A program made the translations under genes and the position numbers. The notes under the pieces were generated by a model. That model did no database searches and was not told the DNA's origin. It saw nothing but the letters and a program-made list of their open reading frames with translations. DNA of 52,977 nucleotides, from assembly GCA_009786825.1 (NCBI GenBank), contig WQRI01000003.1, positions 1-52,977 on the forward strand, written 5' to 3'. Each line of letters opens with the position of its first letter. Position 1 is the first letter of the stretch. This document shows positions 12,496-40,173 of this stretch, one piece after another. This DNA is from Bacillota bacterium. GTDB taxonomy: Bacteria > Bacillota > Clostridia > Christensenellales > WQRI01.

Positions 12496-12496
12496 T

Positions 12497-12655
12497 AAAT
12501 GTTAAATGCTAAATTTTAAATGTTTAATTGTTACACCGCTTAGCGCGGGGCAAAATCAATTTGCAAATTTTATACAAATCAAAGTGCTAACTGTTCAAAA
12601 TTAAAGTATTTAAAGGGTTTAAACATTTAACATTCAACATTTAAAATTAAACATT
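12497..12655 (+). repeat. F1 element copy I (forward)
   Basis: AAATGTTAAATGCTAAATTTTAAATGTTTAATTG, TTACACCGCTTAGCGCGGGGCAAAAT, ATTTGCAAAT, ACTGTTCAAAAT, AACATTTAACATTCAACATTTAAAATTAAACATT. Confidence 0.9.
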
Positions 12656-13368: not shown

Positions 13369-13440
13369 CCAATTAACAATTGGGGCTAACAATTCAAGTT
13401 TAAAATACTTGTTAACTGTTACTTGTTAGTTGTTACTTGG
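13369..13440. repeat. Arms-only heptad hairpin (F1-like arms, no core)
   Basis: CCAATTAACAATTGGGGCTAACAATTCAAG, 9-nt loop TTTAAAATA, then CTTGTTAACTGTTACTTGTTAGTTGTTACTTGG. Confidence 0.7.
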
Positions 13441-13455
13441 GTGGAGATAAATATT

Positions 13456-13992
13456 ATGTTAATGCCAAGAAGGGTAAAAAGAAGAAAACAACATAGAGGT
13501 AGAATGAAGGGTATTGCCACAAGGGGTAATGTTATTGCCAATGGAGAATTTGGTATAATGGCACTAGAACCTTCGTGGATGACAAGCAGACAAATAGAAG
13601 CCGCACGTCGTGCTATGACAAGGTCTATTAGGCGTGGTGGTAAAGTATGGATAAACGTATTCCCTCATAAGCCAATTACTAAAAAGCCGGCTGAGACGCG
13701 AATGGGTAAAGGTAAGGGTAGCCCGGAGTATTGGGTTGCTGTTGTTAAGCCTAATCGTATTTTATTTGAAATGAGCGGGGTATCGGAAGAAGCGGCAAGA
13801 GAGGCTATGCGCCTTGCAATTAACAAACTGCCTATGAAGGCTAAGTTTGTTACGCGCAAAGAGTTAGAGGCAAGTGGCGTTATATCTCAAAAAATATTAA
13901 ACAATAAAATAAGGGCAGAAAAAGAAACTGCTAAAAAGGCTACAGAAGTGGCAGAAGCAACACAAGCAACTGACAAAGTGGAGGGCAAATAA
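13456..13992 (+). CDS. rplP: 50S ribosomal protein L16 (uL16), with an approximately 40-aa C-terminal tail
   Basis: [24 protein letters not shown]....GEFG..ALE. SD GGTGGAG at 13439-13445. Tail [39 protein letters not shown]. Confidence 0.95.
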
Positions 13993-14390
13993 TGAAAGCA
14001 AAAGAATGGAACAAGTTAACGGACGACGAGTTGATGTCTAAACTTAAAGATTTAAAAAATGAGTTATTTAACCTGCGCTTTGCCCACGCGACAAGACAAT
14101 TGTCTAACCCTTTGTCGCTTCGCACTACAAAAAAGGATATAGCAAGAATAAAAACAATTCTGCACGAGAGAGAACTTAAAACGGGTATAAAGCCTACGCA
14201 AGTTAAGGCACTAGAAACTAAGGCTGTTAAAAAGCCGGTGGAAACTAAAAAAGTTGAAGCAAAAAAAGTTGAAGCAAAAAAATCGGCTGAAGTAAAAAAG
14301 CCTACTGAGACTAAGGCGACAAGTGTTAAAAAAGTGGCAGAGGCTAAACAGACTGGCGCTATAGAAAAAAAGGCAGGAGGAGATAAATAA
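13992..14390 (+). CDS. rpmC: 50S ribosomal protein L29 (uL29), with an approximately 65-aa Lys-rich C-terminal tail
   Basis: [32 protein letters not shown] core. The ATG overlaps the rplP TAA by 1 nt. The tail contains [12 protein letters not shown]. Confidence 0.93.
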
Positions 14391-15817
14391 TGAGTGAAAA
14401 AAATATCCCTGCCACCAAGGCAGAAAAGTTAAAACAAACTATAGCAGACAACAAAGAAAAGGTTAAAGAAGCAAAGGTTGCACTATCTACTCTTCAAAAA
14501 GATGAAAAGGCAGCGTCTGCTTTAGTACTTAAATACGAAAAAAGTCTAGATACTTCTAACAAGTCTTTACAAAAGGCTGTTGGGCTTAAAGAGAGTTTAG
14601 CTTTAGCGGTAGAAAAAGCAAATGCTGGCAAGGCTGATGCGGCTGCAAACCTAAAGCAAAAGCAAGCAGATGCTAAGGCTAAAAAGGGTGACGGCAAAGC
14701 GGCGGAAGCAGTAGCAAAAGCGGAAGAGAGGCTTCAAAAAGCGAACACGTCCCTAGAGGCTGCTAAAATTAAAAACTCAGCAAACGAAATTATCATAAAA
14801 GAAAAGACTAAAGAAGTAGCGGGCATACAAAAAGATATAGAAAAAACGCAAAAAAGCGTTGCGGGTATAACTTCTAAACTACCTACGGCGCAAAAAAAGA
14901 TAGACGACCTAGAAGCAAAACTTACAAAAGCACTAGCAGACTTAGAAGCAGAAAAGGCTAAGGGCGCAGAGACTAAAGGCAAGGTTGCACCAGCGCCAAA
15001 GGCTACAGAGGCTAAGGCGGCTGCACCAAAAAAAGTTGCGGACAAGCCGGCGGCTAAGGCAGGGGCGAAAGCTGAAAAGCCGAAAGCTAGTCCAAGGGCA
15101 ACTGAAAAGGTTGCGACTAAGGTCAGTGAAAAAACAGCACCAAAGGCTACTACGGCAGAACCTGCAAAGGCTGTAAAGGCTACTACGCCAGCACCAACAC
15201 CAATAATTACTAAAAAGGCGGTAACTGTTAAGGAAGTAGATGGCGCAATTGTTGCTACTAAAAAAGTGGTAACAGTTAAGCAAGCGGGTGATAGCATAGC
15301 GGTTGTAACATCTAAGCAGGCAGTAACAGTAAAGCAAGCAGACGGAACATCAGTTACGCACAAGCCAAAAATTGTAGGCGAGTCTGATGTATCTGTATCA
15401 GAGTTTACAAGACCAGAAAAAAGGCAACAACTACAAACTGCTAAAAAGCAAAAACCACGTAAGGCGGTTGCATACTCTAGACCAGTTAAAACAATTAAAG
15501 AGGTTAAGCGCCAAAGAGAAGATGCGGCTAAAAAATCTGCAGAACTACTAGTAGAGCGTGCAGAGCGCAGACCACTTAGAAAAACAAGAACAGGAATTGT
15601 CGTATCTAACAAAATGGACAAAACAATTGTTGTTGCTGTTGTGTCTAAAGTTAAGCACCCAATCTACAAAAAAACAGTTAACCAAACAAAGAGATATAAA
15701 GCGCACGACGAAAACAACACAGCGGGCATAGGCGACACAGTATTAATTGCAGAGACTAGAAAACTTTCTAAAAACAAGTATTTTAGACTAGTAGATATTG
15801 TTGCACGCGCCAAATAA
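14390..15817 (+). CDS. rpsQ: 30S ribosomal protein S17 (uS17) fused to an approximately 391-aa N-terminal Lys/Ala-rich extension
   Basis: The C-terminal 84 aa (from about 15563), [69 protein letters not shown], are canonical S17. SD AGGAGGAG, and ATG 14390 overlaps the rpmC TAA. No start codon or SD lies near the core. Confidence 0.9.
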
Positions 15818-16029: not shown

Positions 16030-16404
16030 ATGGTACAAATGCAAACGAGGCTAGTAGTTGCAGATAACTCTGGTGCAAAAGAGATTATGTGCATTAGGGT
16101 ACTAGGCGGCTCATTTAGAAAAAGCGGTAATATTGGCGATATAATTGTAGCAAGTGTTAAGTCGGCAAACCCGGGCGGAAACGTTAAAAAGGGTGATGTT
16201 GTAAAGGCACTTATTGTTAGAACGCACAAGGGCATAACGCGCCCAGATGGCTCTACAATTAAATTCGATGATAATGCGGCAGTAATAATAGATAATAACA
16301 AGCAACCACGCGGAAGCCGTGTTTTCGGACCAGTTGCAAGAGAAATAAGAGATAAAGATGCGGCTTTTGCAAAAATAGCATCTTTAGCACCAGAAGTTTT
16401 ATAA
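16030..16404 (+). CDS. rplN: 50S ribosomal protein L14 (uL14)
   Basis: [23 protein letters not shown]...[36 protein letters not shown]. Confidence 0.98.
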
Positions 16405-16608
16405 ATGTTAAATTGTAAATGTTAAATGTTTAATGGTTTCACCGCTAGCGCGGGCAATATTATATTTGCAAATTGTATTAATTATGAAAATGCAGGCTGT
16501 TAAAAAGTTTGGTATATAATGAGTTCAGCCATTTAACATTTAAAATTAAACATTTAACATTTACAATTTAACATTAAAATAAGCATTTAACATTAAAAAT
16601 TTAACATT
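16404..16608 (+). repeat. F1 element copy L (forward, extra partial right arm)
   Basis: AATGTTAAATTGTAAATGTTAAATGTTTAATG, GTTTCACCGCTAGCGCGGGCAAT, ATTTGCAAAT, GCTGTTAAAAAG, ATGAGTTCAGC, CATTTAACATTTAAAATTAAACATTTAACATTTACAATTTAACATT, plus a second arm piece at 16584-16608. Confidence 0.9.
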
Positions 16609-16623
16609 AATATAAGGGTGAAT

Positions 16624-17094
16624 ATGAATACTTTACACGTAAAAAAAGGTGATACGGTTTTGGTACTTGCTGGAAAAGACAAAGGTAAAAAAGGCAAGGT
16701 GTCTGCTACGTTCCCTAAAAAAAATAGAGTAGTAGTTGATGGAGTTAACACAATTACTAAGCACAAAAAAGCAAGAGACCCTAAAGATAAGTCGGGCAGA
16801 ATAAAGTTAGATGCGCCAATTAATGCATCTAATGTTATGGTAATTTGCTCTAAGTGCAACAAAGCAACGCGTATTGCAAAAGTAAAGGCAGAAAACGGCA
16901 AAATGGTAAGGGCTTGCAAAAAGTGTAATGCATTACTTGGTAACACTAGCATTGCTAAAAAGCGTACGGCTAAGTCTGACAAGGCTGATAAGGCGGTAGA
17001 CAAGGCAGACAAAAAGGTTGCTAAAAAAGAGAAAGAGCCAAAAGTTGCAGACGAGAAAGAAACCAAAAAGAAAAAAGATAAAATATTAGTGTAA
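16624..17094 (+). CDS. rplX: 50S ribosomal protein L24 (uL24), with a Cys4 knuckle and an approximately 50-aa Lys-rich C-terminal tail
   Basis: LHVKKGDTVLVLAGKDKGKKGKV...KNRVVV.GVN. KOW core. CSKCNK...CKKCN. Tail AKKRTAKSDKADKAVDKADKKVAKKEKEPKVADEKETKKKKDKILV. GTG 16618 is the alternative start. Confidence 0.92.
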   Translation: MNTLHVKKGDTVLVLAGKDKGKKGKVSATFPKKNRVVVDGVNTITKHKKARDPKDKSGRIKLDAPINASNVMVICSKCNKATRIAKVKAENGKMVRACKKCNALLGNTSIAKKRTAKSDKADKAVDKADKKVAKKEKEPKVADEKETKKKKDKILV

Positions 17095-17167: not shown

Positions 17168-20100
17168 ATGAGTAAGGAAAAAAATCAGGTTGCTAAAGCA
17201 ACTGCAACCGATAAAACGAAAAAGCCAGCAGACAAAAAAGTTGTGGCTAAAAAAGAAACTGCTGCTAAAAAGCCAGCGGTAAAAAAAGAAGCGAAGCCAG
17301 CAGTTAAAAAAGAAACTGCTGTTAAGAAGCCTGCTAGTGCGGGTGCTTTAGATATTTCTAAGCAAAAAGCGGCGGCGTACAAAGTGTACGAGGCTAGCAT
17401 TAAAACAATCGCTGGTATAGAAAAAGATTTAGGGGCTTCTCACCTACAGCAAGCAAAAGCACTAGAGGCTGTAAGCAAACTTAACAAGTCGGCGGAAGCG
17501 CTTGTGACTAAGCAAGGCTCACTTCAAAAGCAATCTGATGATGCTAAGAAAAAACTTGAGGTGGCAAACAAAGAAGTTACAACTGCTAAGGCAGAAGTTA
17601 CAAAAGTAAAGGCTACGGCAACAAAAGCAAAGGCAGATGCATCTAAGGCAGAAGCAGATTTTAAAAAGGCGCAAACAAAAGTTGCACCTATTAAAGATGC
17701 GGTTGCAAAACTAGATAAAGAGTTAAAGGGCGCAAACGAAGCAACGCAAAAGGTTAAAAAAGCGGTTGTAGATACGTCCAGTGCGCTTAACACAACGGCT
17801 AAAGATGTAGAGGCTACATCTAAGGCTGTGCAAGATACATCTAAAACATTGCAAGACAGCACTAAGGCTTTAGGGGTTGCTGCTAAAGAAACTATTAAGG
17901 CACTAGAGAAGTTAAACAAAGTAAAAGCGGGTGACGACAAAGCAAAAAAAGCGGCAGAAGCCGAGCATAAAAAAGCGGTTAGCGCAGAAGAAAAGGCTAA
18001 GGCTTCTAACGAGAAGGCTAAGGTTGCAAGCGAAAAAGCAAAAGCGGCAAGCGAAAAGGCTAAGGCTGTAAACGAAAAAGCAAAGGCGGATAATGCTAAG
18101 GCTAAGACTGAGTCTAAAAAGTCTGATGAAAAACTAGCAAATGCGCAAAAAGACCAAAAGGCAAAGCAAGCAGACTTAACAAAGGCAGAGGCAGATGTTG
18201 CTAAGTTGTCTAAAGCGGTTGAGAGTGCAAAAACGGCGCAAAAATCGGCAGAGACAAAAGCGACGGCGCACGAGCAAAAAGTTAAGACGCTTGAGACAAA
18301 ACTTAAAGCAGAAAAAGATAAAGAAACAAAAATTTCGGCAGATATAAATAAAACAAAAGCAGAACTAGATAAAACAAAAAAGCAACTAGTTGTAGAGACT
18401 AAAAAAGAAAAAGACATAACAACTAAAGTATCTAAACTAGAAAAAGATGTAGACAAAGCGGCAAAAGAAAAAGAGAAGGCTTTTAACGCTTTAGTTAAGG
18501 TTATAACAACAGACATCAATCAAACAGAAGCGCAAAAAATTGCGGTAGACAAAGAGTTAACAAACGCTAAAGGGCAAGTTAGCACATTGGCTAAAGAAAA
18601 CACGGCTTTAAGCGCGCAAGTTAAAAAGTTAGAATCAGATGTTGCAAAAGCAACGCAAGGCTCTAACAAGTCGGCAGAAAAGGCAAAGCAGACAGCAGAG
18701 CGTGTTAAAAAGGCGTCGTTAGATGTTAAAGAAGCAAACAAAAAAGTACAAGAGAGTTTAAACGACCTTGTAAAAATAGATAAAGACACTAAAAAAGAAA
18801 GAGACGATTTTGCTAAAGCAGTAGAAAAGGCGGGCGCGCAAGATAAGGCGGCTAGTGATAAGTTAAACGCTAATTTTGCTAAAGCAAAAGCAGATATAGA
18901 TAAGGCTAATGCAAACAAAACAGCGCTAGAAGATGCTAGAAAAAAGGCTACAGAGCAACTAGCGCAAGCGCACCAAAAGTATAAAGATGCAGATGCGAAA
19001 GTTAAACTAGCGGGCAAAGAAAAGGTTTCGGGAGAGCTTCTAGATAAAATTAACAAAACGTTTGCGGGCGCGGCGGAAAGGCTAGAAAAGGCAAAGGCAA
19101 CAGAAAAGACTGCTAAAGACAAAATTGTGGCAAACGACAAACTAGTTAAAGACAAAGAAAAAGAGTTAGCAAAACACAAAGCAGACCTAGACAAACTTAA
19201 CAAAAAAATACAAGCAGACAAAACTAAGAGTGCGGACGCTAAAAAGAAACTAGATGAAAAAATAAAGGGGCTGATAGAAAAAACTAATGCTAAGCGCGAG
19301 GCGGCAAGTAGTGCTAAAGCAAAAGCAGACGAGGCTTTCAAGCAAGCAGAAGCACAAAATGCTCAGATTGTAGATGAAAAGAAAAAGGCAGATGATGTTA
19401 CAAAAACGTTGTCAGCGCAAAAGCAAGATGTAGATAAGAAGTTCCCTGTTGTTGCTAAACAACTAAAAGATGTTGAAGCGACTATTGCAAAAAATGAGCC
19501 TGTATCTAAAGCGCTAGGGGTAGAGATTGCAAGTAAGCGTGCAGAACTAGAGGCACTAATTGGCAAAACTAAAATGCCGGCGGTTAAAAAGCCAGCGGAA
19601 GTTAAAGTTGTTGCTAAGCCAAAACCACCAGCAGTTATTGCTAAGCCTGAGACTAAGGTGGCAGACAAAGCACAACCTAAGGTGGCAGATAAGGCAGAGC
19701 CGGTTAAGCCAGTTGCCCAGCCAATTGTAAGGGACAGAACTGCTGCTAAAGCGGATGCGGCGGCTCAGCGCGAGCAGCAACGTGCAGACCAAGTGGCTGC
19801 TAAACTGCAAAGCCAAAAGCAAGCGGCAGAGGCAGAAGCGGCAAGGCGCGCGACTGCTAAAGTTGAGGGTGATACTAGGCGTGCGGCAGAGCAAGCGGCA
19901 GCGGCTGCAGAGCAAGCGGAAGCAAGGCGTGCAGAAGCACTAGCAAGGCGCGAAGCAGAAGCACAAGAGGCGGCGACTAGCGCAGAAGCGGCAGAGCGCG
20001 AAAAACTAGCGACTCAAAAAGCAGAAGAAAAGGCAGCGGCAGAAAAAGCGACAAGGGAAGCAGAGGCAAAAGAAAGAGCAGAGCGCGAAGCGGCAGAAGC

Positions 20101-20749
20101 AAAAGCAAGGGCAGAGCGCGAGGCACTAGAGCGCGCTAAAAGAGAGGCTCAAGCACGCGAAAAAGCGGCAGAAGCGGTTGCAAAACTTAAGCGCCCAGCA
20201 ACGCCAAGACACCGCCTAAAACAGCACTACATCAACAACGTTATGCCGGCTTTAATGAAAGAGTACGCATACAAAAATGTAATGCAAGTTCCTAAAATAG
20301 ATAAAATCGTACTTAATATGGGGCTAGGCGATGTTAAAGACGACAGCAAAAAACTTCAGCAAGCGGTTAAAGAGTTAGAGCTTATCGCGGGTCAGCGCCC
20401 TGTTATCACTAAGGCTAAAAAATCTATAGCAACATACAGACTACGTCAGGGTATGAGCATAGGTTGTAAGGTAACACTTAGAGGCGAGCGTATGTACGAG
20501 TTTTTAGATAGATTTATCTCAATAGCACTACCAAGAAAGCGCGACTTTAGGGGTATCCCATCAAAGTCTTTCGATGGTAGGGGTAACTACGCAATGGGTA
20601 TAAAAGAACAACTTATTTTCCCAGAAATCTCGTACGATACTGTAGACAAAATAAGGGGCTTCGACATTGCAATTGTTACAACAGCCTACACAGATAAAGA
20701 AGCACTATCTCTACTTAAATCACTAGGCTTACCATTTACGACAAACTAA
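17168..20749 (+). CDS. rplE: 50S ribosomal protein L5 (uL5) fused to an approximately 1015-aa N-terminal Lys/Ala/Glu-rich, coiled-coil-like extension
   Basis: The last approximately 178 aa (from about 20213), [40 protein letters not shown]...[20 protein letters not shown], are canonical L5. A single uninterrupted ORF of 1193 aa. No ATG/GTG/TTG with SD lies at the core boundary. Confidence 0.88.
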
Positions 20750-21030: not shown

Positions 21031-21215
21031 TATCAAGCACTATAAACGGCGCAATACTTCGTTAAGGTTTACGGTTTTCTTGTTTGCGTACGCCAAGTAC
21101 GCGGCACGGCGAAAATCCGCACCTTTCCGACCGAGCCGTAAACCGTAAGGTTTTAGCCTTTTGCGTAGCAAAAGCGTCAAAAGGCGAGGTGTCTTGCTTG
21201 TTTCTAGCACTTGAT
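21031..21215 (+). repeat. F2 element copy 2 (long form, with the 65-nt module)
   Basis: Starts at the base after TAG. Outer IR TATCAAGCAC.../...GCACTTGATA, hairpin GCGTAC-GCCAA-GTACGC, module CGACCGAGCCGTAAACCGTAAGGTTTTAGCCTTTTGCGTAGCAAAAGCGTCAAAAGGCGAGGTGT at 21128-21192. Confidence 0.88.
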
Positions 21216-22465: not shown

Positions 22466-22653
22466 TTAAAATCCGTATATACTTCGCAATACGGCGTCAA
22501 GGCTTACGGTTTGCGCGGTTACGTACCGAGTGGTACGCGCCCTTGCAAATCCGCGCCTTTTCGACCGAGCCGTAAACCGTAAGGTTTTAGCCTTTTGCGG
22601 TAGCAAAAGCGTCAAAAGGCGAGGTGTCTTGCTTGTATCTACGAATTTTAATT
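22465..22653 (+). repeat. F2 element copy 3 (long form)
   Basis: Outer IR AATTAAAAT/ATTTTAATT. The first A is the last base of the rplF TAA. GCGCGG/CCGCGC stem, hairpin CGTACC-GAG-TGGTACG, 65-nt module at 22562-22627. Confidence 0.88.
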
Positions 22654-22798: not shown

Positions 22799-23167
22799 AT
22801 GATTACTAAAAGAGATAGCAATAAAGAGAGAAAAAAGCGTCATAAAAGAGTAAGGGCTAAAGTAAACGGAACGACAGAGAGACCAAGGCTTAATGTTTAC
22901 AGAAGCACGGCTCACATTTATGCACAAGTAATAGACGATGTTAAAGGACACACACTAGCAAGTAGTTCTACACTAGACAAAAAGTTAAAGGCAAAACTTA
23001 AGGGCAAAACAAAAAAAGAACAAGCAAAAATAGTAGGGCTAGATGTTGCTCAAAAGGCAATGGCTAAAAAAGTAACCACAGTAGTATTTGATAGAGGCGG
23101 GTATTTGTACACGGGTCGAGTAAAAGATTTAGCAGACGGGGCTAGAGAGGGTGGTCTAATATTCTAA
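22799..23167 (+). CDS. rplR: 50S ribosomal protein L18 (uL18)
   Basis: [40 protein letters not shown]...[22 protein letters not shown]. Confidence 0.97.
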
Positions 23168-23227
23168 CAGACAAAACTGAAGCAATTTCTACGATAATTT
23201 TTAGAATAAAAAATAGAGGATATAAAA

Positions 23228-24511
23228 ATGTCAGAAGTTAAAGATAAAACAAAAAAGGAAGCAAAGCCAAAGGCAGAACCTAAAGCAAAGGCTGAAAAAG
23301 CGCCAGCAAAGGCTAAAGCTGAACCTAAGGCTACTACTGCAAAGGCAGAGCCAAAAGCAAAAGCAGAAAAAGTACCTGCTAAGTCTACTGCTACTAAAGT
23401 AGAAAAGCCAAAGGCAGAGCCTAAGGCTAAGGCTGAACCTAAGGCTAAGGCTGAGAAAGCGCCGGCTAAAGCTACTACTGCTAAAGCAGAGAAGCCAAAG
23501 GCTGAGCCTAAGGCTAAGGCGGAGCCAAAAGCAAAAGCTGAAAAAGCACCTGCTAAAGCAAAGGCAGAACCTAAGGCAAAAGCAGAACCAAAAGCAAAAG
23601 CTGAAAAAGCACCTGCTAAGTCTACTGCTACTAAAGCAGAGAAGCCAAAAGCAGAGCCTAAGGCAAAAGCAGAAAAAGCACCTACTAAAGTGGAAAAGCC
23701 AAAGGCTGAGACTAAGCCAAAGGCAGAGCCAAAGAAAGCAGAGCCTAAGGCAGAAAAAGTGGTTGCTGAAAAGGCGGTGGCTAAGGCTACTGCTAAGCCT
23801 GCTGAAAAGGCAGTCGTTGCTGAAAAGCCAACTGATAAGCCAGTTAGGGCAGACAAGGCTACTGCTACTGGGGCAGACAAGGCGGCGGCAAGAACTGGTG
23901 GTGCAGATAGAACAAGACAAACGGATAGACCAGCGGGCAGAGATGGTGAGGCTCAATCTAGCGAAAGAGGTCAGCGCGAACGTGGCGACAGACGCCCACC
24001 AAGAGAGCAAGACGATACAAAGCGTAAACTTATTGCTGTTAGGCGCGTTACTAAAGTTGTTAAGGGCGGACGCAATATGCGATTTAGTGCTTTAGTAGTT
24101 GTAGGGGATGGCGCTGGTATGATAGGCATAGGCTCGGGGCGCGCTAACGAAGTTCCGTCTGCTATTGAAAAGGCGGTGCAAGAAGCAAAGCGCAAAATGC
24201 AAAAGGTTTCACTTTTCGATACAACTATACCGCACAATGTAATCGGCAAGTTTGGCACTTCTCGCGTTATAATGTTACCAGCATCTAGGGGTACTGGTGT
24301 TATAGCGGGTGGTCCGGTTCGTGCTGTTATGGAAGCGGTAGGAATTAAAGATATCAGAACAAAGTGCCACGGCACGAATAACCCTATAAATGTTACAAGG
24401 GCTGTTATAGATGGGCTTATGCAACTAAGAACCAAAGAAGAAGTAGCGGCGCTTAGGGGCAAAACAGTAGCAGAATTAATGGGACAAAAAGAGACTGGGG
24501 AGGTGAAGTAA
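23228..24511 (+). CDS. rpsE: 30S ribosomal protein S5 (uS5) fused to an approximately 264-aa N-terminal KAEPKAKAE-repeat extension
   Basis: Core from about 24020: [55 protein letters not shown]...[25 protein letters not shown] precedes ATG 23228. No internal start at the core boundary. Confidence 0.9.
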
Positions 24512-24512
24512 T

Positions 24513-25160
24513 ATGTCTAAAGAGAAAGAAAAAGTAAAGACTACTACCGCCTCAAAGCCAAAGGCAGAGCCTAAAGCAAAGGTAGAAAAGCCAAAGACTG
24601 CGGACAAGCCAAAAGTAGAAAAGGCAAAGGCAGAAAAAACTTCGCCATCTAAAATGGAAAAGCCGGCTACAAAAACCAAAGAAGTTGCTACAAAAACAGA
24701 AAAAGCAAAGGCAGAAGTTACTAAGGCTACAAAGACTACGGAAAAGACTGCACCAAAAACTACAACTGAAAAGGCAGAAAAAACAGCAAGTGCTAAGCAG
24801 TCTGTGCCACAAGTTAAGGCTTCTAAAGCGGCTAGTAAAACTACAAAGTCTAACAGACAAGTTCATATAACTAAAAAAGCAAAAAAGAAGCCAGACTTTA
24901 AAGGCTCTGTAAAAATAGTGCTTGTAAAGTCTACAATTGGGGCTTTACAAAGGCACATAGATACTATTACGTCTTTGGGCTTAAAGCGCATAAGAGACGA
25001 AGTTATACAACCTTTTAACGCGGCAACGGCGGGCAAAATTCACCACATCAAGCACTTAGTAAAAGTAGAATATATGCCTACAACTAATGCCCCAAAAAAG
25101 CCAAAGCACGTAAGCAAGTATAAAGCAAGCAAGTTAGAAGCAGCAAAAAAAGCAAAGTAG
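24513..25160 (+). CDS. rpmD: 50S ribosomal protein L30 (uL30), with an approximately 132-aa N-terminal Lys/Thr/Ala-rich extension and an approximately 25-aa C-terminal tail
   Basis: Core VKIVLVKSTIGALQRHIDTITSLGLKRIRDEVIQPFNAATAGKIHHIKHLVKVE from about 24909. SD GGAGG, and the ATG lies 1 nt after the rpsE TAA. Confidence 0.88.
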   Translation: MSKEKEKVKTTTASKPKAEPKAKVEKPKTADKPKVEKAKAEKTSPSKMEKPATKTKEVATKTEKAKAEVTKATKTTEKTAPKTTTEKAEKTASAKQSVPQVKASKAASKTTKSNRQVHITKKAKKKPDFKGSVKIVLVKSTIGALQRHIDTITSLGLKRIRDEVIQPFNAATAGKIHHIKHLVKVEYMPTTNAPKKPKHVSKYKASKLEAAKKAK

Positions 25161-25162
25161 TC

Positions 25163-25326
25163 AATGTTAAATGTTTAATTTTAAATGTTAAATGGTTAAA
25201 CTCATTATTGCAAATAGTTTCAAACAGCCTGCATTTAATCTTTTATTATAATTTGCAAAATGAGATTTTGCCCGCGCTAAGCGGTGAAACCATTAAACAT
25301 TAAAAATTTAACATTAAAAATTTAAC
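25163..25326 (-). repeat. F1 element copy O (reverse)
   Basis: AATGTTAAATGTTTAATTTTAAATGTTAAATG, GTTAAACTCATT, TTTCAAACAGCC, ATTTGCAAAAT, TTTTGCCCGCGCTAAGCGGTGAAAC, CATTAAACATTAAAAATTTAACATTAAAAATTTAAC. Confidence 0.9.
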
Positions 25327-39735: not shown

Positions 39736-40173
39736 ATGCAAAACAAGTTAATTAAAGAGATTTTAGCGGCAGAGGCAGAGGCAGACATTATTGTTAAAGA
39801 TGCAAGAGAGAAGTCTGCACAAATTGTTACTAGCGCAAAAAGGCAAGCAGAGACCATTATTGAAGAGTTAGCAAAAAAGGCTAACATTGAGACTGCTCAG
39901 ATATTGTCTAGCATAGAAACAGATGAGAGAGTTATAAAAAAGTACGAGGCAGAGTTTAGCGAAAAGGCAAAAAACTTAAAGGCGGAAGCAACAAAAAAGT
40001 ATGCTAAAGTTGCTGATTTTATAGTTGGCGCTGTAGTGCAAAAATATTCGGGCGTGGAAGAGACTGCGGCTAAAAAAGCACCGGCTAAGGCTTCGGCTTC
40101 TAAGGCTACTGCTAAGGCTGCGCCAAAGACTACTGCTTCTAAAACTACGGCTAAAAAGCCAGCAAAAAAATAG
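39736..40173 (+). CDS. ntpF: V-type ATPase small peripheral-stalk subunit (NtpF/G-like), with an Ala/Lys/Thr-rich C-terminal tail
   Basis: First gene of the ntp cluster. N-terminus LIKEILAAEAEADIIVKDAREKSAQIVTSAKRQAE is typical of stalk subunits. Tail AAKKAPAKASASKATAKAAPKTTASKTTAKKPAKK. Confidence 0.6.
   Translation: MQNKLIKEILAAEAEADIIVKDAREKSAQIVTSAKRQAETIIEELAKKANIETAQILSSIETDERVIKKYEAEFSEKAKNLKAEATKKYAKVADFIVGAVVQKYSGVEETAAKKAPAKASASKATAKAAPKTTASKTTAKKPAKK

What the first reader, a model, noticed from the sequence alone, without database searches (positions are those of the whole stretch)
23228..24511. uS5 fused to an approximately 264-residue N-terminal extension made largely of KAEPKAKAE(KAPAK) tandem repeats
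The S5 core starts at about 24020. Upstream, residues 10-190 are almost pure repeats of [14 protein letters not shown] / [20 protein letters not shown], visible in the DNA at about 23270-23760 as near-identical GCAGAGCC(T/A)AAGGC(T/A)AAGGC units. An R/D/G/E-rich stretch follows ([39 protein letters not shown]).

Such perfect repeats are prone to length variation by slippage. The antisense strand also yields long spurious ORFs. The AKP-type composition resembles histone H1-like or nucleoid-associated tails, which raises the possibility of ribosome-nucleic acid or ribosome-envelope tethering.
Basis: partly seen in the sequence, partly recalled or inferred. Interest (0 to 1): 0.68.

Follow-up and report, generated by a model that had tools for sequence, protein, structure and literature searches.

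The report
Ribosomal protein S5 with long lysine-rich tail
A termite-gut Clostridia bacterium encodes ribosomal protein S5 with a real, translated 264-residue disordered lysine/alanine/glutamate/proline repeat tail at its N-terminus, an extreme case of a known kind of ribosomal-protein extension that the public annotation hides and that at least six other ribosomal proteins in the same operon share.

Summary
ORF 23228-24511 (+) encodes 427 aa. Residues 265-427 are a standard bacterial uS5. Residues 1-264 are a low-complexity extension containing 11 KAEPKA units in 21- and 29-residue super-repeats, followed by an R/D/G/E-rich linker.

The extension is coding and belongs to S5:
- Differences between repeat copies are 80% synonymous in the S5 frame, against 23% expected.
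- The only good start is ATG 23228.
- Conserved S5 residues lie upstream of the ATT start used in the public NCBI annotation, which gives 159 aa.

It is not an assembly artefact. The longest exact repeat is 32 nt, and independent assemblies give identical DNA. The repeats are not "perfect", so the slippage argument is weak.

AlphaFold predicts pure coil. Composition is K32/A29/E14/P13 with net charge +32, so it is only partly H1-like.

The S5 tail is not isolated. uL5 (1193 aa), uS17 (475 aa), uL30, uL29, uL24 and uL16 in the same operon carry similar tails, about 1,970 extra residues in all.

Disordered A/E/K-rich r-protein extensions and short actinobacterial uS5 N-extensions at the mRNA entry are already known. 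This one is four to five times longer than any solved uS5.

The likely role, a flexible polycationic RNA-contacting or spacing brush, is inferred and untested.

The parts
23215..23220 (+). Shine-Dalgarno-like AGAGGA, 7 nt upstream of the S5 start codon
   Evidence: It is of similar strength to the AAGGG sites ahead of L24 and L5.
23228..24511 (+). Complete uS5 (rpsE) gene, 427 codons plus a TAA stop
   Evidence: TIGR01021 scores 200 bits against a cutoff of 164.
23228..23269 (+). N-terminal cap [14 protein letters not shown] (residues 1-14)
   Evidence: It resembles the N-termini of the extended L30, L5 and S17 (MSKEK.., MSEKN..).
23270..23767 (+). Repeat block (residues 15-180). It holds 11 KAEPKA units organised as [[15 protein letters not shown]-(TTA/STAT)-KAEKP] super-repeats of 21 and 29 residues.
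   Evidence: Differences between copies are 80% synonymous.
23768..23899 (+). Less repetitive A/V/K/T/E-rich segment (residues 181-224)
23900..24019 (+). R/D/G/E/Q-rich linker (residues 225-264). Its last ~20 residues align with the normal short N-tail of Christensenellales-type S5 (..RRPxRRxEExDG..).
   Evidence: (R256 conserved in at least 90% of sequences).
24020..24508 (+). Conserved uS5 core (S5_N dsRBD-like domain plus S5_C domain)
   Evidence: (pLDDT 83-95).
24032..24034 (+). ATT codon used as the S5 start in the public NCBI annotation (159-aa product P0121). Judged wrong.
   Evidence: There is no SD, and this start cuts off conserved residues and the first ~8 positions of TIGR01021.
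23690..23779 (+). The only other canonical in-frame starts: GTG at 23690, 23759 and 23777 (residues 155, 178, 184). A minor shorter isoform from these is not excluded.
23164..24010 (-). Two antisense shadow ORFs (23164..23880, 238 aa; 23231..24010, 259 aa), not genes
   Evidence: The S5 frame has the highest synonymous fraction. The 238-aa ORF shares wobble positions with S5.
24513..25160 (+). uL30 with a ~130-residue K/T/A/E/P-rich N-extension. It shares a 31/32-nt stretch with the S5 5' end (23262-23293 vs 24552-24583).
17168..20749 (+). uL5, 1193 aa. A ~1000-residue K/A/E-rich, mostly helical insertion sits between a conserved N-terminal peptide and the L5 core.
14390..15817 (+). uS17, 475 aa, with a ~395-residue N-extension. 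Its start overlaps the L29 stop (ATGA).
13992..14390 (+). uL29 with a ~65-residue K/A/V/E-rich C-tail
16618..17094 (+). uL24 with a ~50-residue K/A/D-rich C-tail
   Evidence: A 40-88-aa tail is common in related species.

Best explanation
This is the genuine rpsE gene of an uncultured Christensenellales-like Clostridia bacterium from the P3 hindgut of the termite Cornitermes sp.

Translation starts at ATG 23228 and yields a 427-residue uS5. The normal short R-rich N-tail has been expanded in situ into a 264-residue extension by tandem amplification of an 18-nt KAEPKA module and its 63- and 87-nt super-units. The extension is intrinsically disordered and proline-punctuated, a lysine-rich polyampholyte (net +34, pI 10, no aromatic residues).

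Shown here:
- The extension is coding in the S5 frame and under purifying selection at the peptide level.
- It has no alternative good start.
- It is contiguous with conserved S5 residues.
- It is predicted to be coil.
- It is lineage-specific.

Inferred from solved actinobacterial ribosomes: the uS5 N-terminus emerges at the solvent side of the mRNA entry channel formed by uS3, uS4 and uS5. The R/D/G/E-rich proximal part therefore probably sits at or in that entrance, and the KAEPKA part projects tens of nanometres into the cytoplasm.

Inferred mechanism, held with low confidence: the tail acts as a flexible cationic brush. It would make weak, sequence-independent contacts with RNA (incoming mRNA or rRNA surface), and it would set spacing and solubility of ribosomes. 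It would do so together with the similar tails on uL5, uS17, uL30, uL29, uL24 and uL16. Together these add about 1,970 residues (~210 kDa) to each ribosome.
For: Identity:
- Pfam S5_N and S5_C and TIGR01021 are all above cutoff.
- The gene sits between L18 and L30 in a complete S10-spc operon.

Translation of the extension:
- The frame is open for 264 codons.
- 59 of 74 codon differences between repeat copies are synonymous in the S5 frame (80%). Random expectation is 23%, and the other two sense frames give 3-8%.
- The 11 KAEPKA units use 10 different DNA spellings.
- Codon usage matches the conserved r-protein parts.

Start site:
- ATG 23228 with AGAGGA 7 nt upstream is the only ATG.
- The only other canonical in-frame starts are GTGs at residues 155, 178 and 184.
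- R256 and the RRP..EQDD..KLI tail are conserved across homologues. TIGR01021 aligns from residue 263. Both lie upstream of the annotated ATT at residue 269.
- No promoter or terminator sits inside the block.

Not an artefact:
- DNA is 100% identical in a JGI contig and an ENA k141 contig, and the exact protein is found on 5 contigs.
- The longest exact repeat is 32 nt.

Disorder:
- AF2 gives residues 1-264 no secondary structure and pLDDT 42-56, while the core folds at 83-95.
- Composition is given.

In situ growth:
- Relatives show graded N-tails of 172, 187-192 and 208-217 aa with R/G/D/N-rich proximal parts.
- No gene lies between L18 and S5 in about 160 related loci.

Position on the ribosome:
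- In C. acnes, density in the mRNA entrance was attributed to the uS5 NTE and may plug the channel (PMC10085706).

Ribosome-wide context.
Against: - There is no expression, proteomic or ribosome-association evidence of any kind.
- All contigs carrying the gene probably come from a single metagenome sample.
- The extension has no detectable homologue: HMMER against 1.84 billion representative proteins gave 0 hits, and Pfam gave none. No function can therefore be transferred.
- Different r-proteins are extended in different related species. A V-ATPase-operon subunit in the window also has an AKP/T tail. Both fit a generic proteome tendency rather than an S5-specific role.
- The synonymous excess shows constraint on the peptide or its composition, not a particular function.
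- A shorter isoform from the GTG codons cannot be excluded.
Confidence: 0.65

Rival explanations
1. S5 is initiated internally, as in the public NCBI annotation (ATT 24032, 159 aa). The repeat block would then be untranslated spacer or an unrelated ORF.
For: NCBI's own gene call for the source contig is the 159-aa P0121. S17 is likewise called as 67 aa. Standard uS5 is about 165 aa.
Against: - ATT is a non-canonical start with no SD.
- It removes the first residues of the Pfam and TIGR01021 domain and the conserved RRP..DD..KLI tail, including R256.
- It would leave 865 nt of stop-free spacer whose repeat copies differ 80% synonymously in exactly the S5 frame.
- Prodigal-type callers (JGI, ENA, Logan) give 427 aa.
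- The matching S17 call of 67 aa cuts into the Pfam S17 domain, which suggests a systematic trimming artefact of the annotation pipeline.
Confidence: 0.05
2. The tail is translated but functionless: a neutral product of replication slippage and duplication at a solvent-exposed terminus. It would be tolerated because it does not disturb assembly, as part of a genome-wide drift toward K/A/E/P low-complexity tails.
For: - Which protein is extended varies between related species: L5 in L005, L30 in L002, L24 in most.
- A non-ribosomal protein (39736-40173) carries a similar tail.
- The sequence is low-complexity with no homologues.
- S5 and L30 share a 31/32-nt stretch, which suggests the module spreads by recombination.
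Against: - The repeat copies are old enough to have diverged, yet they stay 80% synonymous, so the peptide or its composition is constrained.
- About 1,970 extra residues on some of the most abundant proteins of a cell is a large cost.
- No frameshift or stop has accumulated in 264 codons here, or in ~1000 codons in L5.
Confidence: 0.2
3. The tail is a histone-H1-like DNA or nucleoid tether, or an envelope tether, that physically anchors ribosomes.
For: - K+A+P make up 74% of residues 1-190, with net positive charge and pI 10.
- Eukaryotic precedent: Drosophila RpL22 and RpL23a carry H1-like N-extensions (PMC3074143).
- The uL5 extension is a ~950-residue helical arm long enough to bridge to other structures.
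Against: - With 14% glutamate and only +0.17 net charge per residue, the tail is unlike H1 C-tails or bacterial Hc1/HupB/AlgP tails, which are nearly free of acidic residues (own knowledge).
- No Pfam match even at E<=10.
- There is no hydrophobic or lipid-anchor segment.
- The attachment point at the mRNA entry favours RNA as the ligand.
Confidence: 0.08
4. The repeat number is an assembly artefact (collapsed or expanded repeats).
For: - The data are short-read metagenome assemblies.
- The JGI contig breaks at 23092 and 24544, next to sequence shared between S5 and L30.
Against: - The longest exact repeat inside the block is 32 nt, and the longest stretch shared with the rest of the window is 21 nt. 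Both are far below read length and k=141.
- Different assemblies (JGI, ENA, and also NCBI, GEM and Logan by protein identity) give the same sequence.
- The frame stays open and periodic throughout.
Confidence: 0.03

Closest known systems
Actinobacterial uS5 N-terminal extension (M. smegmatis, M. tuberculosis, C. acnes ribosome structures; PMC6133939, PMC10085706)
   Same: It is an N-terminal addition to a standard uS5 core with an R/G/D/E-rich segment next to the core. It is largely flexible and emerges at the uS3/uS4/uS5 mRNA entry site.
   Different: Those extensions are 45-70 residues (chains of 213-220 aa), against 264 here. They have no KAEPKA tandem repeats and a different, acidic/T/A-rich distal part. 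They come from a different phylum, and there is no alignable homology beyond the proximal R-rich stretch.
Low-complexity and disordered extensions of bacterial ribosomal proteins in general (Ntountoumi et al. 2019, PMC6821194; Xue et al. 2022, PMC9534751)
   Same: They are A/E/K-dominated low-complexity regions at r-protein termini on the ribosome surface, mostly predicted to be disordered and found in many phyla. Eleven of 52 M. pneumoniae r-proteins are extended, and disruption of these extensions affects cellular fitness or survival there.
   Different: The reported cases are mostly C-terminal and tens of residues long. S16, L21, L19, L10, L3 and others dominate the lists. Here the extension is N-terminal on uS5 and 264 residues long, and it sits alongside a ~1000-residue extension on uL5 and a ~395-residue one on uS17.
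Organellar ribosome protein expansions (Chlamydomonas chlororibosome 'arm', PMC13481248; mitoribosomes)
   Same: [quoted passage not shown]
   Different: Those extensions fold into a defined extra domain seen by cryo-EM. Here the S5 tail is predicted to be pure coil, and the organism is a free-living gut bacterium, not an organelle.
Histone-H1-like N-extensions of Drosophila RpL22/RpL23a (PMC3074143) and bacterial AKP-repeat tails (HupB, Hc1, AlgP; own knowledge)
   Same: They are lysine/alanine/proline-rich repetitive tails fused to a conserved nucleic-acid-binding core.
   Different: The S5 tail has 14% Glu and about half the net charge density. There is no sequence-family match and no evidence of DNA binding.
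Eukaryotic uS5 (RPS2) RG-rich N-terminus; titin PEVK and TonB Pro-rich spacers (own knowledge, physical analogues only)
   Same: Eukaryotic uS5 also has an R/G-rich proximal N-tail. PEVK and TonB show that P/E/K repeats of ~28 residues behave as extended entropic spacers.
   Different: There is no homology. These are analogies recalled from memory, not tests.

Membership tests
Bacterial uS5 (rpsE) | S5 N-terminal (dsRBD-like) and C-terminal domains | tested here: met
   PF00333 scores 2.6e-24 (residues 265-327) and PF03719 scores 2e-29 (residues 340-410). AF2 folds the core with pLDDT 83-95.
Bacterial uS5 (rpsE) | Equivalog model above the curated cutoff | tested here: met
   TIGR01021 scores 200.2 bits against a cutoff of 164, aligning residues 263-415 to profile positions 3-155 of 156.
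Bacterial uS5 (rpsE) | Position between rplR (L18) and rpmD (L30) in the spc operon | tested here: met
   L18 is at 22799-23167, S5 at 23228-24511 and L30 at 24513-25160.
Disordered terminal extension of a bacterial r-protein (sense of Xue 2022 / Ntountoumi 2019) | More than 20 residues beyond the conserved core terminus, of low complexity | tested here: met
   264 residues with K25/A26/E12/P11. PDB bacterial uS5 chains are 145-220 aa.
Disordered terminal extension of a bacterial r-protein (sense of Xue 2022 / Ntountoumi 2019) | Predicted intrinsic disorder | tested here: met
   AF2 assigns no helix or strand in residues 1-264, with pLDDT 42-56. There are no aromatic residues.
Disordered terminal extension of a bacterial r-protein (sense of Xue 2022 / Ntountoumi 2019) | Present on the mature ribosome | not testable with these tools
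   This needs proteomics or cryo-EM of 30S subunits from the organism.
Actinobacterial-type uS5 NTE | R/G/D/E-rich segment immediately N-terminal to the core | tested here: met
   Residues 225-263 have R16/D12/G9/E8. Compare P0052, P0078 and P0083.
Actinobacterial-type uS5 NTE | Sequence homology of the whole extension | tested here: not met
   Actinobacterial hits cover only 36-44% of the query, i.e. the core. The distal parts differ in composition.
Actinobacterial-type uS5 NTE | Occupies or approaches the mRNA entry channel | not testable with these tools
   This is known only from cryo-EM of other species.
Histone-H1-like / AKP nucleoid-associated tail | K/A/P-dominated composition | tested here: met
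   K32 + A29 + P13 = 74% in residues 1-190.
Histone-H1-like / AKP nucleoid-associated tail | Near absence of acidic residues and high net positive charge | tested here: not met
   There are 28 D+E in 190 residues (E 14%), giving net +32, or +0.17 per residue. The H1 reference values come from own knowledge.
Histone-H1-like / AKP nucleoid-associated tail | Match to a curated H1/Hc-type family | tested here: not met
   Pfam scan of residues 1-264 at E<=10 found 0 families.
Histone-H1-like / AKP nucleoid-associated tail | DNA binding or compaction | not testable with these tools
   This needs recombinant protein.
Slippage-prone contingency repeat | Long perfect tandem DNA repeats | tested here: not met
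   TRF gives 79-92% matches. The longest exact repeat is 32 nt. Ten of the 11 units have a distinct DNA spelling.
Slippage-prone contingency repeat | Length polymorphism between strains or reads | tested here: inconclusive
   All 5 contigs carry the identical protein, and both fetched contigs are 100% identical in DNA. They probably derive from one sample, and no reads are available.

The most novel reading that the evidence does not exclude
This bacterium may build a structurally distinct ribosome. At least seven conserved r-proteins carry lysine-rich extensions totalling about 1,970 residues (~210 kDa). They include a ~950-residue helical arm on uL5 at the central protuberance and a 264-residue cationic coil on uS5 at the mRNA entry. 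Together these would form a functional protein coat or tether that organises ribosomes relative to mRNA, to each other or to the nucleoid. That would be a bacterial counterpart of the protein-expanded organellar ribosomes. It has so far been invisible because the reference annotation trims the genes to standard length. A second, unrelated termite-gut S5 with a ~180-residue K/A/E/P/T tail (P0007, Embiratermes P3) hints that the gut environment may select for such tails.
Probability: 0.25. Interest if true: 0.75.

Novelty: new member of a known kind. Interest (0 to 1): 0.5.

Why it matters
Disordered extensions on bacterial ribosomal proteins are known, but their functions are largely open. This locus gives an extreme, natural test case:
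- The uS5 tail is four to five times longer than any in a solved structure, anchored at the mRNA entry.
- The same operon also encodes a 1193-aa uL5 and a 475-aa uS17.

If these tails are on mature ribosomes, the particle carries roughly a quarter more protein than an E. coli ribosome. That would bear on how ribosome surfaces tune RNA contacts, crowding and localisation.

There is also a practical point. The NCBI annotation of the source contig starts S5 at a non-canonical ATT and truncates S17 inside its domain. Surveys of r-protein length that rely on such annotations will systematically miss cases like this.

Tried and rejected
1. HMMER search of the extension alone (residues 1-264) against 1.84 billion representative proteins gave 0 hits at E<=0.001. 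Composition correction probably removes everything, so this is uninformative about homology.
2. Pfam scan of the S5 and L30 extensions at E<=10 found no family.
3. Word-indexed search with full-length uL5 returned nothing at E<=1e-15 among 8000 low-complexity candidates, so the rarity of giant uL5 could not be measured.
4. The full-length S5 search was dominated by the core. It did turn up other long S5 proteins (P0007, P0014, P0059 with N-terminal extensions; P0009, P0020, P0048, P0109 with C-terminal ones), but no close relative.
5. A SecY-anchored scan of GTDB species genomes and an S5-anchored scan of metagenome contigs found no close relative. The best identities were 58% for SecY and 68% for S5. 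Repeat-number variation between strains therefore could not be examined.
6. Rfam at gathering threshold and a tRNA scan over the whole window found nothing.
7. A promoter and terminator scan found nothing on the + strand inside the extension.
8. A gene fusion with a formerly separate upstream gene was considered and rejected. L18 and S5 are directly adjacent in about 160 related loci, and relatives show graded growth of the same R-rich tail.
9. The antisense ORFs were considered as real genes and rejected. The S5 frame has the highest synonymous fraction, and only the S5 frame joins a conserved domain.
Full report
**Observation.** The ORF 23228..24511 (+) encodes 427 residues.
- Pfam places the S5 N-domain at residues 265-327 and the C-domain at 340-410.
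- NCBIfam TIGR01021 (rpsE_bact) scores 200 bits against a cutoff of 164 over residues 263-415.
- Upstream of the core lie four segments:
  - A 14-residue cap.
  - A repeat block at residues 15-~180, with 11 copies of KAEPKA arranged as [[15 protein letters not shown]-(TTA/STAT)-KAEKP].
  - A less repetitive A/V/K/T/E-rich stretch at residues 181-224.
  - An R/D/G/E-rich linker at residues 225-263.
- Tandem Repeats Finder reports periods of 18, 63 and 87 nt with 79-92% matches.
Ten of the 12 fall in 23273-23724.
- The two long antisense ORFs exist.
- One correction is needed: the repeats are not near-perfect.
  - Only one motif hit is exact.
  - The 11 KAEPKA units have 10 different DNA spellings.
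  - The longest exact repeat is 32 nt.

**Genomic context.** The gene lies in a complete S10-spc-alpha ribosomal operon (S10 ... L18, S5, L30, L15, SecY, Adk, Map, IF1, S13, S11, S4, RpoA, L17).
- The organism is an uncultured Christensenellales-like Clostridia bacterium. Its SecY is at most 55-58% identical to any GTDB species representative. The nearest include termite-gut MAGs.
- A contig 100% identical in DNA comes from JGI metagenome 3300002450. The contig prefix JGI24695J34938 is the same dataset as MAG Co191P3bin30, which is the P3 hindgut of Cornitermes sp..

**Is the extension translated as part of S5?** Five lines of evidence say yes.
- First, repeat copies compared in register differ mostly at codon position 3. 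In the S5 frame, 59 of 74 differing codons are synonymous (80%). Random change would give 23%, and the other two sense frames give 3-8%.
- The best antisense frame reaches 64%, only because its wobble positions coincide with those of S5.
- Second, the only in-frame ATG is at 23228, with AGAGGA 7 nt upstream. The only other canonical starts are GTGs at residues 155, 178 and 184. Nothing lies between residue 184 and the core.
- Third, homologues conserve residues upstream of the core. R256 is conserved in at least 90% of sequences, and the ..RRPxRRxEExDG(L/F)IKKLI.. tail aligns with the window's [17 protein letters not shown].
- Fourth, codon usage matches the conserved r-protein segments.
- Fifth, no promoter or terminator on the + strand interrupts the block.

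**The public annotation disagrees.**
- The NCBI gene call for the source contig is a 159-aa S5 (P0121) starting at ATT 24032. S17 is called as 67 aa.
- The ATT start has no SD. It deletes conserved residues and the first positions of the family model. It would leave 865 nt of stop-free, codon-periodic 'spacer'.
- I judge it an annotation artefact. JGI, ENA and Logan gene calls give the long forms.
- A minor shorter isoform from one of the GTGs cannot be excluded.

**Assembly artefact?** This is unlikely.
- Exact repeats are at most 32 nt, well below read length and the k=141 of the ENA assembly.
- The exact 427-aa protein is recorded on five contigs, and both contigs fetched (JGI and ENA) are 100% identical in DNA.
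- These assemblies probably share one sample. They therefore say nothing about strain-level length polymorphism.

**Nature and origin of the tail.**
- Residues 1-190 are K32/A29/E14/P13 with net charge +32 and pI 10. The whole extension has no aromatic residue.
- AlphaFold2, run with a 20-sequence alignment, predicts no secondary structure in residues 1-264 (pLDDT 42-56). The core folds confidently.
- Closest S5 homologues show a graded series of N-tails of 172-173, 187-192 and 208-217 aa. All have R/G/D/N-rich segments next to the core.
- In about 160 related loci, L18 and S5 are directly adjacent, and the S5 N-extension measured from the first Met is at most 70 residues.
- The tail therefore grew in situ by amplification of an 18-nt module and its super-units. 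It was not acquired by gene fusion, and its size is specific to this lineage.
- S5 and the adjacent L30 gene share a 31/32-nt stretch at their 5' ends. The module has evidently moved between genes.

**The S5 tail is one of many.** In the same operon:
- uL5 is 1193 aa.
- uS17 is 475 aa, and its start overlaps the L29 stop.
- uL30 is 215 aa.
- uL29, uL24 and uL16 carry 45-67-residue K-rich C-tails.
- All seven extensions together add about 1,970 residues, roughly 210 kDa.

Further points on this context:
- The uL5 addition lies between a 12-residue N-terminal peptide ([12 protein letters not shown]), identical in the L5 of relative L002, and the core. It is therefore an insertion behind the authentic start.
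- Single-sequence AF2 predicts the uL5 addition as long helices. This is low confidence, because the L5 core itself was not folded.
- Related species extend different proteins. L5 gains +200 aa with KAEPK motifs in L005, L30 gains +102 aa in L002, and L24 gains +40-88 aa in most.
- A V-ATPase-operon subunit in the window also ends in an AKP/T tail.

**Comparison with what is known.**
- A/E/K-rich low-complexity regions are frequent at the termini of bacterial r-proteins and lie on the ribosome surface (PMC6821194).
- Eleven of 52 M. pneumoniae r-proteins have extensions, mostly predicted to be disordered. The authors report that such extensions are common throughout bacteria and that their disruption affects fitness or survival (PMC9534751).
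- Actinobacterial uS5 carries a 45-70-residue N-extension. [quoted passage not shown] In C. acnes, density there was attributed to it and may plug the channel (PMC6133939, PMC10085706).
- Those actinobacterial tails also have an R/G/D-rich proximal part.
- No bacterial uS5 chain in the PDB exceeds 220 aa.
- Large folded extensions around the mRNA channels are known from the Chlamydomonas chlororibosome (PMC13481248).
- H1-like N-extensions are known on Drosophila RpL22 and RpL23a (PMC3074143).
- The kind is therefore known. This is a new and extreme member: N-terminal, tandem-repeat built, and four to five times longer than characterised uS5 tails.

**Mechanism.**
- Shown here: the tail is a translated, constrained, disordered, net-cationic polyampholyte fused to uS5.
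- Inferred from solved ribosomes: it is anchored at the solvent side of the mRNA entry. The R-rich proximal segment is nearest the channel, and the KAEPKA part projects outward.
- Inferred with low confidence: it makes weak electrostatic contacts with mRNA or rRNA, or acts as an entropic spacer, as part of a ribosome-wide coat.
- The H1/nucleoid-tether idea is weakened by three points:
  - 14% Glu.
  - A charge density of +0.17 per residue.
  - No family match.
- A purely neutral origin is weakened by the synonymous excess and the cost of the extra residues, but it is not excluded.

**Verdict.**
- The fusion reading is well supported.
- The 'perfect repeat / slippage' reading is not supported, and the H1-tether reading is only weakly supported.
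- The finding counts as a new member of a known kind.
- Interest is moderate for S5 alone. It is higher for the operon-wide pattern and for the annotation blind spot it exposes.

Noticed in passing
window 17168-20749 (+): uL5 is 1193 aa. About 1000 K/A/E-rich residues sit between the core (residues ~1015-1192) and a 12-residue N-terminal peptide that is identical in relative L002. The inserted region is predicted to be mostly long helices and gives a weak SMC coiled-coil match. It is far larger than the S5 tail.
   Followed up: partly
window 14390-15817 (+): uS17 is 475 aa with a ~395-residue N-extension. Its ATG overlaps the L29 stop (ATGA). NCBI annotates only a 67-aa product (P0242), which cuts into the Pfam S17 domain.
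   Followed up: partly
window 24513-25160 (+); also 13992-14390, 16618-17094, 13423-13992: uL30 has a ~130-residue K/T/A/E/P N-extension and shares a 31/32-nt stretch with the S5 5' end. uL29, uL24 and uL16 have 45-67-residue K-rich C-tails.
   Followed up: partly
window 16397-16582, 25163-25326, 2621-2810, 12496-12655, 15816-~15990 and other spacers: A ~170-nt element family fills intergenic spacers, including those inside the r-protein operon. It has 30-39-nt inverted arms made of heptamer arrays (AATGTTAAAT... / ...ATTTAACATT, 82-93% complementary). The interior is semi-conserved and contains a small GC hairpin that occurs in both orientations, which is MITE-like. There is no Rfam match.
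   Followed up: partly
window 21113-21206 and 22547-22641: A ~95-nt sequence is present twice at 96-98% identity, in the unusually long S14-S8 and L6-L18 spacers. Its nature is unknown.
   Followed up: no
window 39736-40173 (+): A small subunit in a V-type ATPase-like operon ends in an AKP/T-rich tail (..AAKKAPAKASASKATAKAAPKTTASKTTAKKPAKK). Such tails are therefore not restricted to ribosomal proteins in this genome.
   Followed up: no
L163 135-1166 (P0007; JGI 3300010049, Ga0123356 = Embiratermes neotenicus P3 gut): An unrelated S5 (41% identity over the alignment) from another termite gut carries a ~180-residue K/A/E/P/T/V-rich N-extension followed by an R/N/D/G-rich linker. This is the same two-part architecture. 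In that contig S5 is followed directly by L15, with no L30.
   Followed up: partly
L005 5031-6212; L002 9045-9533: Related MAGs extend other r-proteins. uL5 gains +200 aa with KPKAEPKPK motifs in Co191P3bin30, and uL30 gains +102 aa of AKP repeats in ERR1600705-bin.41.
   Followed up: partly
window 24032 (S5) and the S17 gene: The NCBI annotation of the source contig trims both extended genes to roughly family length. For S5 it uses a non-canonical ATT start. This is a systematic blind spot for surveys of r-protein length.
   Followed up: yes
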